Source: the human T2T-CHM13v2.0 reference genome, Homo sapiens
DNA length: 64,000 nt
Strand: one strand, 5' to 3'
Assembly: GCF_009914755.1 (NCBI RefSeq)
Contig: NC_060938.1
Both the position numbers and the translations under genes were made by a program. The notes below the pieces were generated by a model. It was not told the DNA's origin. It did not search any database and saw nothing but the letters and a program-made list of their open reading frames with translations. Positions 1-53,865 of this stretch are shown one piece after another. Position 1 is the stretch's first letter. The number at the start of each line of letters is the position of its first letter.

Positions 1-1905
<1,905 letters not shown>

Positions 1906-1909
1906 AAGT

Positions 1910-2960
1910 CAACACAGAGAATTTAAAAAAAAAATAAAAGAAGGTTGTATATTCATGAAAAAAGAATAGAAGAATAGAAGGGTATGGAAAGAGGGAAGTC
2001 AGAGAATATTCAGAGAAGGATTTCTTGGGAATTAAGCCAAATTTTTAATTTTTAATTGTAGGGTAGGAAAATCAGTTTGGGTAAATCTTCAATAAAGTAT
2101 TACAGGGGGAACAAAGAAAACCAAGGGGAGGAAATTCTCAAAAATATAACACAAGACATGTTCTCAGAACTGAAAAACATAAATATCTAGAGAAGAGGAC
2201 CCCCATAATGAATGAAGAAGAGCCACACTAAGGTATCGTCATGAAATTGCAGAACACCAGGGTAAAGAGAATGCTCTTCAGAAGCATATGAATACTAGAA
2301 AATAGTGCAGCAAGGCCTTCAAAATTCTGAGGGAAAATTATTTTTAACTTATAATTGTATACTTATTCAAACTATCAGCCAAATGTAAGATTAAATCCAT
2401 TCAAATATGCAAGAATTTACAAGTATTTTGGTCTCTCATATGCTGTTTTCTAGGAAGCTACTGGAGGATGTACTTCAGCAACATGAGGGAGAAAGAGCAA
2501 GACATGGATTTCAAAAAGCAGGAACTTCAACACATGAGGACAATGAAGGGAAATCCAGATTGACAGCTATGTAGCAGCCGGGAAAGCAACTAGTCCAACT
2601 GGAAGCAAGAGGAAGAACAATGGCTTCAGGAGGAATGTCTCAGGGTAAGAGTTTAAAATGTCGTAGTGCTTAAAATTGTGTTTGACTATTTAAAAAAAAA
2701 AATGATACTATATGACCAAAAAATATAGTGAAAAGTACATAGAAATTAGAAAATTTTAAAAGAGACAAGTATTAACTCCAGGGAAAACAAAAAGTTGCAT
2801 GAGAAAGGAATCTACTTGCTTCTTACAGTCAAAAATATTTTACAAGATCATGATTTCACAAATTTGATTATTGAATTAAACACTAATATATATATATTTT
2901 TTCAGAATATGAGAGAGAAGAGGGCAGAGGAGAGCATAAAATATTTAAAACCCCTATTAC
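1910..2960 (+). mobile_element. Ancient L1M/HAL1-like ORF1 fragment
   Basis: A-rich degenerate ORF1-like segments (gccttcaaaattctgagggaaaa...aaactatca, ctaggaagctactggaggatg). Confidence 0.5.
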
Positions 2961-3675
2961 TGAAATCACTGTTGCATAATTATAACTGAGAAAATTATTA
3001 CAGTGAAAGAGACCTAACCTAACCAACTTTATCTTGCTTCTAACCTCTAAGCTGCCCTTGTTCATTCCTGGGCATAGGCCGAACTAATTTGGGGAGGAAC
3101 TTAGCTTATAGTTTAACTTTGAAACAAAAACGATTAACAACCCTTTCCCAAAACAAACTCCCTTCCTACCTGGGGACTAGACTGTCTTTGCAGAACTAAC
3201 AAATGAGCCACAAGATTAGAAATTATGGTTTAGAAGTCATGCAGCTGAAGGCTGCAAGACTCTGACATCCCAAAATGTTCCTGGGGGATAACATCACTAT
3301 TGTAAAACCTAAGAACAGTGCTTGAGATATTTTGCAGCCCCTGCACTTGATGGATCAGCTGGCACCACCCAGATCAATAAACTGGCTCATCTGGTCTTAT
3401 GGTCCCCACCCAGGAACCGGCTCAATACGAGAGGACAGCTTTGACTCCCTGTGATTTCATCTCTGATCAAACCAAGCACCACTCCCAACTCACTGGCCCC
3501 TACCCACAAAATTATCCTCAAAAACCCCCATCCCGAGTTTTCAGGAAGACTGATTTGAGTAATAATAAAACTCCAGTCTCCCATACTGCCAGCTTGCGTA
3601 AATTAAACTCTTTCTGTATTGCAATTCCCCTGTCAGTCTAGGCGGCAGGCAAGGAAAACCCATTGTGTGGTTACA
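2961..3675 (+). mobile_element. Solo ERV1 LTR (LTR8 family)
   Basis: TG...CA ends, 4-bp TSD TTAC (2957-2960 / 3676-3679), LTR8-typical atcttgcttctaacctc-aagctg-ccttgttcattcctggg, AATAAA ~3564. Confidence 0.88.
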
Positions 3676-48971: not shown

Positions 48972-51900
48972 TGTTAGGTTTTAGCCCAAGCTGAGGTTTG
49001 AGGGGAGTTGGTGGACAGGTGGCAGGTAGCTGGAAAAACACTTGAGGAATTGTAGGCAGTTGCAACATGACTTTATTTTTGGTGGGGCGTTAGCCATATA
49101 TACAACATTAGCTATATCTTTTACAAACAATAGTGGCTCCAAGCTAAGCACGAGCTATGTGAGTGGTTACCTAATGTGCCTTACATGGAGTGGTTGCATA
49201 ATGTGTGGGGTTGCGCACCTGCGCTCCAAACCGGCTGAGTTATTCTTCACTGGAAGGCCACCTCAGCCTAATCCTGACTAAAGTGCCGCCATCTCCCTTA
49301 CACTCCACCAGTTAGGCCAAGGGCATTTTTTGGGTAATGACACATGCTCATAGAGCAGAGTCCTGAATTTATAACCTCCTAGGATTTTAGCTATGCTACT
49401 TATGACTATTCGGGCCCAGCATAGGCTAGAGCCCAGGAATGTTTACCATTTTTGCGGGGGGTTTGTAGTAAGGCTTTTGACCACCTTAATTTTTCACGGG
49501 ACCCCTTGCAGGGCTGCTGTTATATTTTGCTGATTATTAGGTATAAAAGTACAACATTGTGTTTTTAAGAGGGCACAGGTGCCTTCTTGGGCAGCAGTTA
49601 CTATGTTTAAGGCCATTTGGTTCCAAAAGGTAACACCACCTTTTGATTTAACTTTATTAACAGGATGAAGGCCACTTGCATGTAATTTAGAGCCTGAGCA
49701 GTCTGCTTTGCAAGAGAGGTAACTTGTGCTTTTACACTTATGATGCCCGCTTTAGGAACAATTAATGCCAAGGAGTAGAACCACCAGGGGCTTGTGGCCT
49801 TTGCAAAAACCAAGAGCGTAGTGCTTTTCAGTTATGTGGGTGTTGGGGCAATGTGGGGAGAACAGTAGCAGGTACATAAGGCCACCCCCAGGTACAACGT
49901 TTAGTTCAGTTTGCTGTAGGTAAGGCTATCCTGTATTTTTACAAACCCATAAACTCCCAGGGGGCACAAAGTTTAGTGGGGCCTGATCTTGGCGGGGCCA
50001 CTTGTCTCAACAAACCTTTGGTGTAGTGACACGTGTTATGTTTGCAGAGGCCATGACGGGTACCCATTCCACAGTGGTGTTACCATAATGTTGCTTTGTG
50101 CACTTCAGCACCAGGGCCAGGGGTACTATATGTTCCCCCACTAGCCAGCCCCACCTATTACAAATGCTACGGGCCAGTTAGGGGTTGGGCATGCCGTGGG
50201 CTTTGCAGCTTTCTTTCTTTAAAGCTTGCTGTGTTGTGTTCCAGGTGTTAGCTATGGGACCCCAAGTTTTTAGCCATGTTTAGTTTTTGGCAGACACTGA
50301 ATGTATATGCCAAGGCAAGCCATTTGCAGCTGCTGCAGGAAGGGCAGTGCAGATTTAAGAGTTGGAAACATTGATTATGTTAGCATTAAGTGTGGGCCCA
50401 GTTTACAAGGCAATTGGAGCATGGTAACCTATGGTTGAAATGACAGAGCAGGCACAGGTACTAACAGAGGTAAATTACATTTTTTAGGCAAAATACAGGC
50501 TAACTTTTTATTCCTGGATAAAAATGCAGCCGCCAAGGGCTTCTGCCCTGGGTGATGGTACTACACCTTTTTAGCTCCCCATGGTTTCCTTGGGTTTTGT
50601 ATTTGTCCCAAAGTTACGAGGGAGCTTATAATAGGCCACACAGATAGTACATATGTTTACTGGAGAAGAGTTGTTTCCTGTCTGTTTTTCTACAAACAGT
50701 TGACCGCAGAGGCCATGTACTGAACACTTAAGGAGTGACATGCAAGTTATGCTGTAGGCCCTCCCCACAGGGAGCTTCAGTGGCCAACCACCCGTAACTG
50801 GGGGCTTGGAGGGTTTATGGCCGTAGCCAGGTTGTTTCCCTGCCTTTGGGGGTGCTGCAGCAAGCAACAACAAATTACTGTTTGTTTTTATACCTGGTTG
50901 GAGAAGGTTATTTTTAGTGTGTATTTGCAACTGAATGGGGGGTGGTTGCTTGGTGTAACAATGCCTTTACAGGGCGAGCTGCCTTTCTGTGGCCACTTAT
51001 TTAAGGTTTGGAGCACCAGGTTTAGCCTGGAACTTTAGCCCTGCAAAGAAGGGGGTGTGACATGCAAGTGTAACTTATTTTTTAAGAGCCCTTTATGTTT
51101 TTAAATTATACCCACAGTTTGCGGGTTGTACGGCACATGGAATTCCCACTTTATGTTTATTTGTTGTGCCCAGTGTTGTACCTGTTGTTTAGTAAAATGT
51201 GTTTTCCTGTTACTTTTAACAGCCAGGGGGAACCATACAGGGCACATAAGTGTTGAAGGGCTGGGATGGTGTGCTGTTGGTCAGCCACCCTACAAGGGTA
51301 GGTGAACAACAGGCCTGTGACCGTGTTTACCGCTGTTAGCGCATGCTTATACCTTTGAGACGTTGGCAGTAGCCCGATGTAGTTTGCTTGCCACCTGGTT
51401 AAGGGCACTTGCTGTATTGTTACTTGTGTAACACTGGGCAGCTGCCTCCATTTAGGGTATGCCTGAGCACAAGCCGGGCATTTTTGGCAAGCCTCCCAAA
51501 TATTTCGCGTGGGCAGGGACAGACCCCAACACTTATTGACTTGTGGTGTTAGTTTACCCCCTGCATGTTCCAGTTTTTGGTGTAGCCACAAGGCCACATT
51601 TTGTGTAGATGCTGACTTCAGCCACTGGACCTTAGTCAAGGCATCTGCCTTATTATTGCCAGGGGTGGCCAAAAGCACATGGCTTGACAAATGATAAATA
51701 GTTACACTTTTTTGATAACCCATTTTTCAGAGGTTTTGCCACATGGCTTGGCCCCAAATGGATTGGTGGCTGACTAGCCAATTTTGTATTTTTAAAGTAG
51801 TTAACCATAAGGTAGACCTTGATAGACTCCCCAGCTATTGGTACAGATTACCATAGGTGGTTTTTTTTTTTTTTTTTTTTTTTTGGTGATTACTATTTAC

Positions 51901-52181
51901 ACTGCTTTAAGTTTAGCCCATTGGCTACTTTGTTTACACCTGGCTTCAAACCACATGGTGTTGGTACTAGGTTGGACTGCAACAGCAGTTTAAGCAGCAG
52001 TAGCACCTTGGCTAGACCCATTTGTGTATCATGCCCCATTGGGAATCGGCGGATGCCCTTCCTTAAATACTGAAGGCTTGGCGTTTAAGGGTGCTTTAGG
52101 CTGACCCCTGGCCTTTTTTGTGTGTTAGAACTACAGGTTTGAAGACTTTTTGCAATGTTGCTGCTACGGGGCTTGTACTTA
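48972..52181 (-). mobile_element. 5'-truncated HERV-S/HERVL18 provirus: RNase H-integrase (~50600-52181), env remnant (~49330-50550), 3' LTR18 (48972-49302)
   Basis: LTR begins tgtaagggagatggcggcactttagtcagg on the minus strand. ORF 51157-51723 has the integrase zinc finger (H..H..CQKC) and core. TM immunosuppressive domain and CX6CC at 49502-49622. Confidence 0.9.
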
Positions 52182-52204
52182 GAAGTTCAGCTTCTACCTT
52201 CATC

Positions 52205-52425
52205 ACTATACTGAGAGCGTAGTGGTTAGGACTACCTGGGTTGGAATCACGGTGCAGCCAGCTTACACCTGTAATGCTTTGCACAATGCTGTTCACCTCC
52301 ATGTACTCAGTCTCCTCGTCGGTAAAGTGGAGATCATAATTATACATGCTTGCTGGGATTACTGTGGAAGTGAAATGAGTCAGCGTATATTCAGTATTTG
52401 GAACTTGCCTGGTACATAGTCAGTA
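52205..52425 (+). mobile_element. MIR
   Basis: gtggttaggact...ctgggttggaatc, ctcagtctcctcgtcggtaaagtgg core, cctggtacatagt end. Confidence 0.75.
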
Positions 52426-52894
52426 TATATACAGCATTCGGAACTTTCTCATACATGTCAGATAACATTGTTTCTAAAGTGTCTAGTGACTAATTTTCAG
52501 TTCTTACATTACTGAACTTTTCTGAGACATCTGCAACTTTAAATCAGTCCCTTCCTTGGAATTTATTCTCCCCTTTTATGTTTATGAGACCTTTTGTTCC
52601 TGATCGCCCCTTCTTCTCTAATCTCGCTAAGTCTTCTTAGCTGTCTCCTTGATTTCTACTGGCAGTGTTTCCTTGGATACTTTTTTCAGACCTCCTTTAT
52701 TCTTACTAAATATCTTCTCTCCGAATGACAGCTTCCATTTTCATGGCTGCTACCTGTATACCAATGACTTTAAACTGCTTTCTTCATCCCTGAACTTTCT
52801 TGAGCTCCGGATCTTAAATGTTGACAACCCTGATGTCTTAGCAGTTTGGGGTCTACTCAAAGCCCAGTTATCATTGATGAGGTCTATAAAACAT

Positions 52895-53865
52895 TTATAG
52901 AAGAATTAATGCCAATTCTAGAGAAACTCTTACATATAATCAATGAGAAAGGAATATTCCAAAATCACTCTCGAAGAGGCCAGTATAACCCTGATGCGAA
53001 AACCTAACAAAAACATTAAAGTGTTAGAGTGTTTGAGAAAAGTGAAAATTACCTTTCTGATAAAGACTATGTGAAGATCTCTCGAAACTAAGCAATAGGA
53101 AAATTAACAACTCAATAAAAATGAATGAAGGATTTGAACACATATTTCATGCACATGGAAGAGGCCCAACGTCATTAATTATTAGGGAATTGCAATTTAA
53201 AACCACCATTAGATGCCACTACATACCTACTAGAGTGGCTGAATTTTTAAAATCATACTGATCATACTAAGTATTGGCAAGGATAAGGAAGAACAGGGAC
53301 CCTCATACATTGCTAATGGAATGTAAAATAGTTGTACCATTTTGGAAAGCCTTTGAGTAGTACATACTCCTACAAGGTAATCCAGCCATTCCACTTTTAA
53401 GTATTTACCCAAAAGAAATCAAATCATATAGTTATACCTGTTACTTGCACTTAAATGTTATAGCAGCTTTATTTGTAGTAGCCCAAAACTGGAAACATCA
53501 CAAACGCCTATTAATAAATAAACAAATTGTGTATTCATACAATGGAATACACAAAACAATAAGGATGATGCATCTCCAAATAATTATGCTGTGTGAAAGA
53601 AGCCATACCCACTGATTCCATTCTTATAAAATTCCGGAAAATGTAAACAAATCTATAGTGGCAGGCAGCAGATCTGTGGTTGCCTTGAGACAGAAAAATA
53701 GGAAGGAAGGATTACAAAAGGATGTAAGAGGAAACTTTTGGGGATGACAGATGTGTTCATGCTATGTTCGTGTCTTGATTGCGGTGGTGGTTTTACAGGT
53801 GTATTTATAATATGGGTAGTTTATTGTATGTCAATTATACCTAAGGAAATCTGCTAAAAATAGAT
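52895..53865 (+). mobile_element. Old L1 (L1MC/ME) fragments
   Basis: ggccagtataaccctgat, ttaaaaccaccattagatgccact and 3'UTR motifs. Confidence 0.75.

What the first reader, a model, noticed from the sequence alone, without database searches (positions are those of the whole stretch)
48972..52181. HERV-S/HERVL18 provirus with an APOBEC3-like GA->AA hypermutation signature
Seen on the viral sense (minus) strand, conserved acidic and Gly codons read as their G->A products. RNase H: YTNGSS (normally YTDGS), CTNSW (TDS) and GNNKAD. Integrase: WQANYIG (catalytic D, 51382-51384), TAVNT, VKSNRKTHFTK (ESDRG..FT) and the catalytic-E region reading ATA ATT TAA AAA. Env TM: MALNIV, AQEGTC, LLKTQCC, IPNN. 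Most are non-CpG GA contexts, and most TGG codons survive. Established: GA->AA preference points to A3B/D/F/H-type rather than A3G (GG->AG) editing. Inference: this copy was inactivated by host editing at integration.
Basis: partly seen in the sequence, partly recalled or inferred. Interest (0 to 1): 0.75.

Follow-up and report, generated by a model that had tools for sequence, protein, structure and literature searches.

The report
APOBEC-hypermutated HERV-S provirus fragment
A broken, tens-of-millions-of-years-old retrovirus copy in a human chromosome 14 intron carries roughly 150-190 one-directional G-to-A changes at GA sites, the scar of a host APOBEC3-type enzyme that wrecked it while it was being copied into DNA; it is a very clean example of a well-known process.

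Summary
Window 48972-52181 (minus strand) is a 5'-truncated HERV-S-type provirus: RNase H remnant, integrase, env and 3' LTR.

- **Excess is copy-private.** Against 29 sister copies from the same genome, it shows 229 G>A versus 69 A>G differences per sister outside CpG, a ratio of 3.33. The sisters range 0.66-1.18. C>T/T>C is 0.85 and transversions are normal (MAFFT repeat).
- **Context is GA.** 82-88% of sister GA sites read AA here, against 3-8% of GC/GT sites (Fisher p 1e-44 to 1e-54). The apparent GG excess is mostly double GGA-to-AAA change. None of the 29 sisters shows any context bias.
- **Confined to the element.** GA depletion stops at the element's ends: observed/expected 0.27 inside, 1.14 and 0.91 in the flanks.
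- **Weakest after the LTR start.** 123 of 135 internal sites are edited versus 5 of 9 LTR sites, as expected for minus-strand cDNA.
At most of the named N/K residues nearly all sisters carry G.

The best explanation is editing by a non-A3G APOBEC3 during reverse transcription. The paralogue cannot be named. The kind is already well described, so interest is modest.

The parts
48972..52181 (-). 5'-truncated HERV-S-type provirus fragment (partial pol, env, 3' LTR) carrying the copy-private G-to-A excess
   Evidence: Matches 29 sister loci at 69-77% identity over sense positions 3-3210. Sisters continue 5' into RT sequence that is absent from the window and from the neighbourhood on this chromosome. 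First and last edited sites are at 52149 and 48999.
51634..52020 (-). RNase H remnant of pol (approximate limits)
Evidence: Projected from the Pfam RNase_H matches of sister ORFs (L005 E=8.8e-16, L004 7.6e-9, L007 1.6e-9). W's own pieces score nothing here.
51098..51600 (-). Integrase remnant (zinc-finger-like H..H/C..C stretch and core; approximate limits)
   Evidence: W piece 51104-51280 hits Pfam rve at E=2.2e-4, below the curated cut-off. Sister L004 hits rve at E=3.7e-6. Motifs lie at 51373-51393, 51322-51336, 51188-51220 and 51098-51109. The H/C spacing is read from the ORF.
49391..50850 (-). env remnant, gamma-type TM with immunosuppressive-domain motif at 49551-49616 (approximate limits)
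   Evidence: Sister ORFs hit Pfam TLV_coat weakly (E=6.7e-4 and 7e-3). W's ISD stretch is identical at 16 of 19 residues to the ISD string in the label of the published HERVS Env record. A second stretch (ORF 50429-50560) is recognisable in that record by eye.
48972..49302 (-). 3' LTR (331 bases), less heavily edited than the interior
   Evidence: Starts with TG at 49302, the point from which a second LTR-like copy in L018 aligns (sense 2880-3210). Homology with all sisters ends at 48972-48990. 5 of 9 GA sites are edited versus 123 of 135 inside.
51861..51884 (-). 24-base A run inside the RNase H remnant
   Evidence: Sisters have a mixed purine tract about 10 bases long here. W has 14 extra bases, all A.

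Best explanation
This is one HERV-S (HERV18/HERVL18, LTR18) provirus. Its minus-strand cDNA was deaminated almost to saturation at 5'-TC sites, which read as GA on the plus strand. The enzyme was a host APOBEC3-type cytidine deaminase other than A3G, acting during the round of reverse transcription that produced this integration in the germ line of an anthropoid ancestor.

The uracils were copied as A, so the provirus arrived with roughly 150-190 G-to-A changes in the surviving 3.2 kb. About nine in ten GA sites were hit, including acidic residues of the RNase H and integrase motifs, so the provirus could not have been functional.

It then aged neutrally like its sisters and lost its 5' half.

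- Shown: the direction, strand, context, privacy and confinement of the changes, and the dip after the LTR start.
- Inferred: the enzyme class, the timing (at reverse transcription) and the age.
For: 1. Direction and strand. W has 229.1 G>A versus 68.8 A>G per sister outside CpG (ratio 3.33). The 29 sisters range 0.66-1.18. W's C>T/T>C is 0.85 and its transversions number 134.5, within the sisters' range. An independent MAFFT alignment gives 243.6 versus 65.5.

2. Context. With four different sister pairs as reference, GA is edited at 80/97 to 91/108 sites (82-88%). GC is edited at 4-5%, GT at 3-8%, and GG at 23-27% by sister context but only 10-12% when the +1 base is read in W. Fisher GA versus GC+GT gives p from 3e-44 to 9e-54. 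Of sister GG sites, 24-33 became AA and only 11-14 became AG.

3. Privacy. None of the 29 sisters has a GA or GG bias (all p>0.05). No genomic copy is closer than 77%.

4. No extra age. W-to-sister identity is 0.787 against 0.832 between sisters. Without columns that differ G/A, the values are 0.880 against 0.885.

5. Confinement. GA o/e is 0.27 for the interior (50 observed, 183 expected) and 0.47 for the LTR. The 5' flank kb is 1.14 and the 3' flank kb is 0.91. The lowest of 470 one-kb readings elsewhere in the window is 0.67.

6. Replication-linked profile. Of 144 sites where at least 70% of 22 main-group sisters read GA, 128 are edited. That is 123/135 in the interior against 5/9 in the LTR (p=0.009). 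Sites in the last bin before the LTR are 17/18 edited, and four of the five sites from 2877 to 2956 (one just before the LTR start, the rest just after) are unedited. For HIV-1, maxima just 5' of the 3' PPT and a lightly edited LTR are described and explained by the time the minus strand stays single-stranded (PMC1635257, abstract and passages).

7. Precedent. Human ERVs show GA-to-AA or GG-to-AG strand-biased changes, and some copies are hypermutated (PMC6955324, section 7). 44 ultra-edited human elements are reported (PMC4866542, section 8).
Against: - No primate orthologue could be examined, so the date of the edits is inferred, not shown.
- The 5' LTR and target-site duplication are missing, so normal integration cannot be shown.
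- The polarity of the changes (C-to-T at TC on the window's + strand) is also what resection of a break at the 5' truncation point would expose.
- The LTR contrast rests on only 9 sites. One of four pair-based tests gave p=0.068.
- Near-saturation hides any extended motif. The rates are GAC 23/24-29/29, GAT 19/20-22/23, GAG 17/24-24/29 and GAA 18/24-19/23, so the paralogue cannot be assigned. GAA, recalled as the A3F-favoured context, is among the less edited.
- A twofold GG-to-AG excess in W's own context is borderline (p 0.04-0.085).
Confidence: 0.9

Rival explanations
1. Deamination happened after integration, on chromosomal single-stranded DNA. This would be a kataegis-like event by A3A/A3B, for instance on the strand exposed by resection of the break that removed the 5' half of the provirus.
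For: The element ends at a rearrangement point (52181). Sisters continue into RT sequence that is absent here. The edited strand is the one that would carry the 3' end at that break (inference). Germline APOBEC-type clusters are described in print (PMC4864454 and PMC5287224, search listing only).
Against: - Editing is uniform and near-saturating for 2.9 kb (24/26, 18/21, 21/23, 27/29, 16/18, 17/18). It does not decay with distance from 52181 and falls only at the LTR start.
- It stops at the element's 3' end. The unique flank has GA o/e 0.91 over 1 kb.
- The other side of the junction shows no mirror-image depletion (TC o/e 0.94 and 1.04 in the first 400 bases; GA 1.08 and 1.09).
Confidence: 0.04
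2. The G-to-A changes came from reverse-transcriptase error under a distorted dNTP pool (low dCTP), the pre-APOBEC explanation for GpA-context hypermutation in lentiviruses. No deaminase would be involved.
For: It would also be plus-strand G-to-A, private to one replication round and confined to the element. The GpA preference was originally ascribed to this (recalled, no call).
Against: About 89% of GA sites changed while GC and GT stayed at background. That is the dinucleotide selectivity of a TC-specific deaminase. The protection just 3' of the LTR start fits single-strand exposure time rather than polymerase error, which should not depend on plus-strand priming. The deaminase explanation is the accepted one for this pattern (PMC1635257, PMC6955324).
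Confidence: 0.03
3. A3G-type (GG-to-AG) editing is the main process.
For: By sister context, GG sites are changed at 23-27%, against 3-8% for GC/GT (OR 4.9-7.8).
Against: When the +1 base is read in W, the rate falls to 10-12% (OR about 2, p 0.04-0.085). Of changed sister GG pairs, 24-33 are AA (both bases changed, i.e. GGA read through a new GA) and only 11-14 are AG. GA sites are changed at 82-88%.
Confidence: 0.01
4. There was no editing event. The copy belongs to an A-rich, GA-poor subfamily, or the asymmetry is an alignment artefact.
For: W is 5-6 points more diverged from every sister than they are from each other. Taken alone, that could suggest a separate lineage.
Against: All of the extra divergence lies in G/A columns (0.880 versus 0.885 without them). 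No copy in the genome is closer than 77%. Two aligners agree. C, T and transversion counts are ordinary.
Confidence: 0.01

Closest known systems
Ultra-edited / hypermutated endogenous retroviruses of primates (Knisbacher & Levanon 2016, PMC4866542; Ito, Gifford & Sato 2020, PMC6955324)
   Same: Both show a plus-strand G-to-A excess private to single ERV copies, with GA or GG motifs in primates, and tens to hundreds of edits per element (section 8; section 7).
   Different: This copy is old, so background changes outnumber edits. G>A is about a third of all mismatches, so it would fail that paper's rule that G>A be the majority of mismatches.

Its family is filed under ERV3/ERVL, whereas that paper says primate editing lies in ERVK and ERV1 'and not ERVL' (passage).

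Whether this copy is in either paper's lists could not be checked.
GA-to-AA hypermutated HIV-1 proviruses (A3F/A3D/A3H-type editing in the absence of Vif), with the PPT-linked gradients of Suspene et al. 2006 (PMC1635257)
   Same: Both show a TC context on the minus strand, G falling as A rises, the heaviest editing just 5' of the 3' PPT, and a lightly edited LTR.
   Different: About 89% of GA sites are converted here. The paper calls extensively edited genomes relative rarities (4 of 30) (passage). No central dip can be seen here, because editing is saturated and only the 3' 3.2 kb survives.
A3G-hypermutated HERV-K(HML-2) copies and edited ancient primate gammaretroviruses (PMC2531183, PMC2564838; search listings only)
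   Same: Both are fossil proviruses inactivated by APOBEC3 at the time of germ-line entry.
   Different: The HERV-K cases are recalled as chiefly GG-to-AG (A3G-type). Here the context is GA-to-AA, and the virus is a class III-pol / class I-env recombinant family.
Germline APOBEC mutation clusters in chromosomal DNA (PMC4864454, PMC5287224; search listings only)
   Same: Both involve strand-coordinated C-to-T changes in an APOBEC context.
   Different: Here the changes fill a retroviral element exactly, reach near-saturation over 3 kb, and follow the LTR boundary.

Membership tests
HERV-S (HERV18 / HERVL18-int with LTR18) | Retroviral pol with RT, RNase H and integrase, filed as class III / ERV3 | tested here: inconclusive
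   Sister ORFs hit RVT_1 (2.5e-17), RNase_H (8.8e-16) and rve (3.7e-6) in that order. W itself gives only rve at E=2.2e-4, below the cut-off. Class III placement of pol was not tested, as no reference set was at hand.
HERV-S (HERV18 / HERVL18-int with LTR18) | Class I (gamma-type) env joined to class III pol, with the family's immunosuppressive-domain motif | tested here: met
   Vargiu 2016 and Kojima 2018 state that HERVS has a class I / ERV1-like env (passages). W's stretch at 49551-49616 is identical at 16 of 19 residues to the ISD string in the label of the published HERVS Env record. All three differences are of the kind a G-to-A change gives. Sisters hit TLV_coat weakly.
HERV-S (HERV18 / HERVL18-int with LTR18) | LTR of type LTR18 | tested here: inconclusive
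   The first 40 or so bases of W's LTR (from 49302) resemble, by eye, a stretch of the LTR in the published HERVS record shown. No Dfam or Repbase comparison could be run.
HERV-S (HERV18 / HERVL18-int with LTR18) | Small family, about 50 copies, of intermediate-to-old age | tested here: met
   The genome search gave 63 matching places, of which 30 were fetched as loci (a lower bound). The published figure is 50 copies, with mean LTR divergence 13.4% in 14 of 16 canonical copies. Sister-sister identity is 0.832.
APOBEC3-hypermutated provirus | Plus-strand G-to-A excess without a matching C-to-T excess, outside CpG | tested here: met
   The ratio is 3.33 for G>A/A>G against 0.85 for C>T/T>C. The 29 sisters range 0.66-1.18, and the result is repeated.
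APOBEC3-hypermutated provirus | Dinucleotide context of a known deaminase (Hypermut-type test) | tested here: met
   GA is edited at 82-88% against 3-8% for GC/GT, with OR 73-144 by sister context.
APOBEC3-hypermutated provirus | Changes private to the copy and confined to the element | tested here: met
   None of the 29 sisters is biased. The nearest copy is 77% identical. Flank GA o/e is 1.14 and 0.91, against 0.27 inside.
APOBEC3-hypermutated provirus | Editing follows minus-strand single-strand exposure (least just 3' of the PPT) | tested here: met
   123/135 interior sites are edited against 5/9 LTR sites (p=0.009). The unedited sites cluster at sense positions 2877-2956. The numbers are small.
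APOBEC3-hypermutated provirus | Edits already present in orthologous copies of other primates (edits as old as the insertion) | not testable with these tools
   Only the window's own genome is held, and it has no relatives in the collection (header).
A3G-type (GG-to-AG) hypermutant | GG is the preferred context | tested here: not met
   GG with G kept at +1 is edited at 10-12% against 76-82% for GA in W's own context. Sister GG pairs become AA far more often than AG.

The most novel reading that the evidence does not exclude
This may be the first described hypermutated HERV-S, and an unusually old and nearly saturated one. It would be a dated fossil showing that a TC-specific APOBEC3 (not A3G) was already packaged into, and lethally edited, an infectious class III-pol / class I-env recombinant retrovirus in the anthropoid germ line some 30-50 million years ago. 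It shows an all-or-nothing outcome (1 of 30 copies). It also preserves a PPT-proximal protection pattern, which records how that extinct virus primed its plus strand.
Probability: 0.25. Interest if true: 0.4.

Novelty: new member of a known kind. Interest (0 to 1): 0.3.

Why it matters
It is a textbook-clean natural record of innate antiviral editing. One copy in thirty of an old retrovirus family is edited at about nine in ten GA sites, the rest not at all. The edited copy still shows the replication-linked dip after the LTR start.

It extends documented APOBEC3 footprints to a family filed under ERVL/ERV3, where a genome-wide screen saw little primate editing. With primate orthologues it could time-stamp TC-type APOBEC3 activity.

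It changes no concept. Hypermutated ERV copies with GA or GG motifs are already well described.

Tried and rejected
- **Pfam on W's own pieces.** Ten stop-to-stop pieces of W gave only a sub-threshold rve hit. Domains had to be read from the sisters.
- **Rest of the provirus.** The upstream 1500 bases of five sisters, and W's own LTR, find nothing else in the window. A sister's RT part finds no place near this locus on the chromosome.
- **Polarising the flanks with repeats.** The 3' flank kb is unique in the genome. The 5' flank kb holds only a 145-base old dispersed repeat, 700 bases from the junction. Flank controls therefore rest on dinucleotide ratios.
- **Extended motif (-1, +2).** Editing is too close to saturation to discriminate between enzymes.
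- **Published lists.** The names HERVL18, LTR18, HERV18 and chr14 were not found in the 2 searchable supplement files (307 characters) of PMC4866542. Its file 1 could not be searched. HERVL18, LTR18, HERV18 and HERVS71 were not found in 8 supplement files of PMC6955324.
- **Paper searches.** Searches listed no paper on a hypermutated HERV-S. These were listings only.
- **Comparison method.** All polarising was done by pairs or shares of natural sister copies.
Full report
**What is there.**
Read on the minus strand, window 48972-52181 is a retroviral fragment. A search of the window's own genome returned 63 matching places, and 29 sister loci besides the window's own were fetched. They are 69-77% identical to the window copy, called W below, over sense positions 3-3210.

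Sister ORFs carry, in order, RVT_1 (E=2.5e-17), RNase_H (8.8e-16), rve (3.7e-6) and a weak TLV_coat TM match (6.7e-4). W's own pieces give only a sub-threshold rve hit (E=2.2e-4).

Sisters stay homologous to one another for at least 1.5 kb upstream of W's 5' end, while homology ends for all at W's 3' end. That upstream (RT) sequence is found nowhere else in the window and nowhere near this locus on the chromosome. W is therefore a 5'-truncated provirus with four parts:
- an RNase H remnant at about 51634-52020;
- integrase at about 51098-51600;
- env at about 49391-50850;
- a 331-base 3' LTR at 48972-49302.

**Family.**
Repbase lists HERV18 (HERVL18) with LTR18A-C as HERVS. It is an ERV3 family that acquired an ERV1-like env by recombination (PMC5753468, passages). 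Vargiu et al. give about 50 copies, a class I env, and mean LTR divergence of 13.4% (PMC4724089, passages and supplement passages).

W's immunosuppressive-domain stretch (49551-49616) is identical at 16 of 19 residues to the ISD string in the label of their HERVS Env record. A second env stretch and the start of the LTR are recognisable in their records by eye. No Dfam run was possible.

**The asymmetry.**
All comparisons are between natural copies.

Outside CpG, W shows on average 229.1 sites per sister where the sister has G and W has A, and 68.8 of the reverse (ratio 3.33). Treated the same way, each of the 29 sisters gives 0.66-1.18. W's C>T/T>C is 0.85, and its transversion count (134.5) lies within the sisters' range. 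A MAFFT alignment of W with 8 sisters gives 243.6 versus 65.5.

| Measure | W | 29 sisters |
|---|---|---|
| A fraction | 0.309 | 0.237-0.262 |
| G fraction | 0.204 | 0.255-0.275 |
| GA dinucleotides | 59 (o/e 0.29) | 116-187 (o/e 0.76-0.91) |

C and T fractions are unchanged. The sense-strand TC depletion (0.61) is a family trait (sisters 0.56-0.71).

W is 0.787 identical to 14 main-group sisters, which are 0.832 identical to each other. After dropping columns that differ G/A, the figures are 0.880 and 0.885. All of W's extra divergence is therefore G-to-A, and W is otherwise as old as its sisters. The net excess is about 150-190 sites.

**Context.**
Sites were taken where two sisters agree on G and on the next base, outside CpG, with four different reference pairs.

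| Sister context | Read as A in W |
|---|---|
| GA | 80/97 to 91/108 (82-88%) |
| GC | 4-5% |
| GT | 3-8% |
| GG | 23-27% |

- Fisher tests of GA against GC+GT give p from 3e-44 to 9e-54.
- Read in W's own context, GG falls to 10-12% (OR about 2, p 0.04-0.085).
- Of sister GG pairs, 24-33 became AA, 14-16 GA, and only 11-14 AG. The GG signal is therefore mostly GGA edited twice.
- C-to-T in W is flat across contexts (2-13%).
- None of the 29 sisters shows GA or GG enrichment when made the focal copy (all p>0.05).
- Extended context is nearly uninformative at this saturation. GGA is slightly less edited than AGA/TGA, and GAA/GAG slightly less than GAC/GAT.

At most of the named N/K/E residues W has A where 20-28 of 25-28 sisters have G. 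The exception is CTNSW, where the family is split 13/13.

Two statements need trimming:
- The stop in the integrase E stretch is a transversion; 27 of 28 sisters have G where W has T.
- W keeps TGG trinucleotides in only 37-43 of 72-78 cases, against 54-56 of 72-75 in controls. Losses go mainly to TAA.

**Confinement and profile.**

| Region (minus strand) | GA o/e |
|---|---|
| Interior | 0.27 (50 observed, 183 expected) |
| LTR | 0.47 |
| First kb of 5' flank | 1.14 |
| First kb of 3' flank | 0.91 |
| Lowest of 470 one-kb readings elsewhere | 0.67 |

The first and last edited sites lie 32 and 27 bases inside the ends.

Of 144 sites where at least 70% of 22 main-group sisters read GA, 128 are A in W. 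By 500-base bins the counts are 24/26, 18/21, 21/23, 27/29, 16/18 and 17/18, then 5/9 in the LTR (interior 123/135 versus LTR 5/9, p=0.009). Four of the five sites between sense 2877 and 2956 are unedited; the first lies just before the LTR start and the rest just after it. Pair-based versions agree, with p of 0.004, 0.004, 0.010 and 0.068, as does.

This is the pattern described for APOBEC3-edited HIV-1: maxima just 5' of the 3' PPT and a lightly edited LTR. There it is explained by how long the minus strand stays single-stranded (PMC1635257, abstract and passages).

**Mechanism and rivals.**
The best reading (0.9) is TC-specific APOBEC3-type deamination of minus-strand cDNA in the replication round that made this provirus. 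The provirus was then non-functional on arrival, aged neutrally, and lost its 5' half.

Context excludes A3G as the main enzyme. It does not separate A3F/D/H/B from A3A, A3C or APOBEC1, and the ancestral enzymes of that time cannot be equated with today's paralogues (inference).

Rivals:
- **Chromosomal single-strand deamination at the truncation break (0.04).** It has the right polarity. Against it stand the flat, saturated profile, the exact fit to the element, and the LTR dip.
- **Polymerase error under dNTP imbalance (0.03).** It does not explain the dinucleotide selectivity or the dip.
- **A3G as the main enzyme (0.01).**
- **Subfamily or alignment artefact (0.01).**

**Age (inference).**
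Sister-sister divergence is about 17%. The published LTR divergence is about 13%. With a recalled neutral rate near 0.2% per million years, these put the family at a few tens of millions of years. No orthologue could be checked.

**Novelty.**
Strand-biased GA-to-AA and GG-to-AG changes in human ERVs, and individually hypermutated copies, are established (PMC6955324, section 7). So are 44 'ultra-edited' human elements (PMC4866542, section 8). That paper also says primate editing lies in ERVK and ERV1 'and not ERVL' (passage), so an edited ERV3-class family member is a small addition.

I found no description of a hypermutated HERV-S (listings; supplements). One supplement file could not be searched, and the genome-wide lists may contain this copy.

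Verdict: a real and very clean example, a new member of a known kind, of modest interest.

Noticed in passing
window 51861-51884 (minus strand): This is a 24-base A run where sisters have a mixed purine tract about 10 bases long. W has 14 extra bases, all A. It looks like editing that made a short homopolymer, which then grew by slippage.
   Followed up: partly
L020, L021, L024, L025, L028, L029, L030: These form a second subgroup of the family. They are 75-77% identical to the main group, which is 80-84% identical within itself. Their homology with W stops at or near sense position 2792 in five of the seven, upstream of the LTR. This suggests another LTR18 subtype.
   Followed up: no
L018 (oriented 469-817): An LTR-like piece matching W's LTR (sense 2880-3210, 81%) lies upstream of a body that begins only at sense position 590. 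This is a rearranged copy.
   Followed up: no
window 52182-52420 and 52871-53018: The DNA abutting the provirus's truncated 5' end looks like a MIR-type SINE; this name is recalled and comes from no call. About 700 bases further on lies a 145-base old dispersed repeat with 39 partial matches of 72-77% identity in the genome. The 3' flank kb is unique in the genome.
   Followed up: partly
all 30 copies, sense strand: TC dinucleotides are depleted on the sense strand across the whole family (o/e 0.56-0.71; W 0.61). This is unrelated to W's private GA loss and is unexplained.
   Followed up: no
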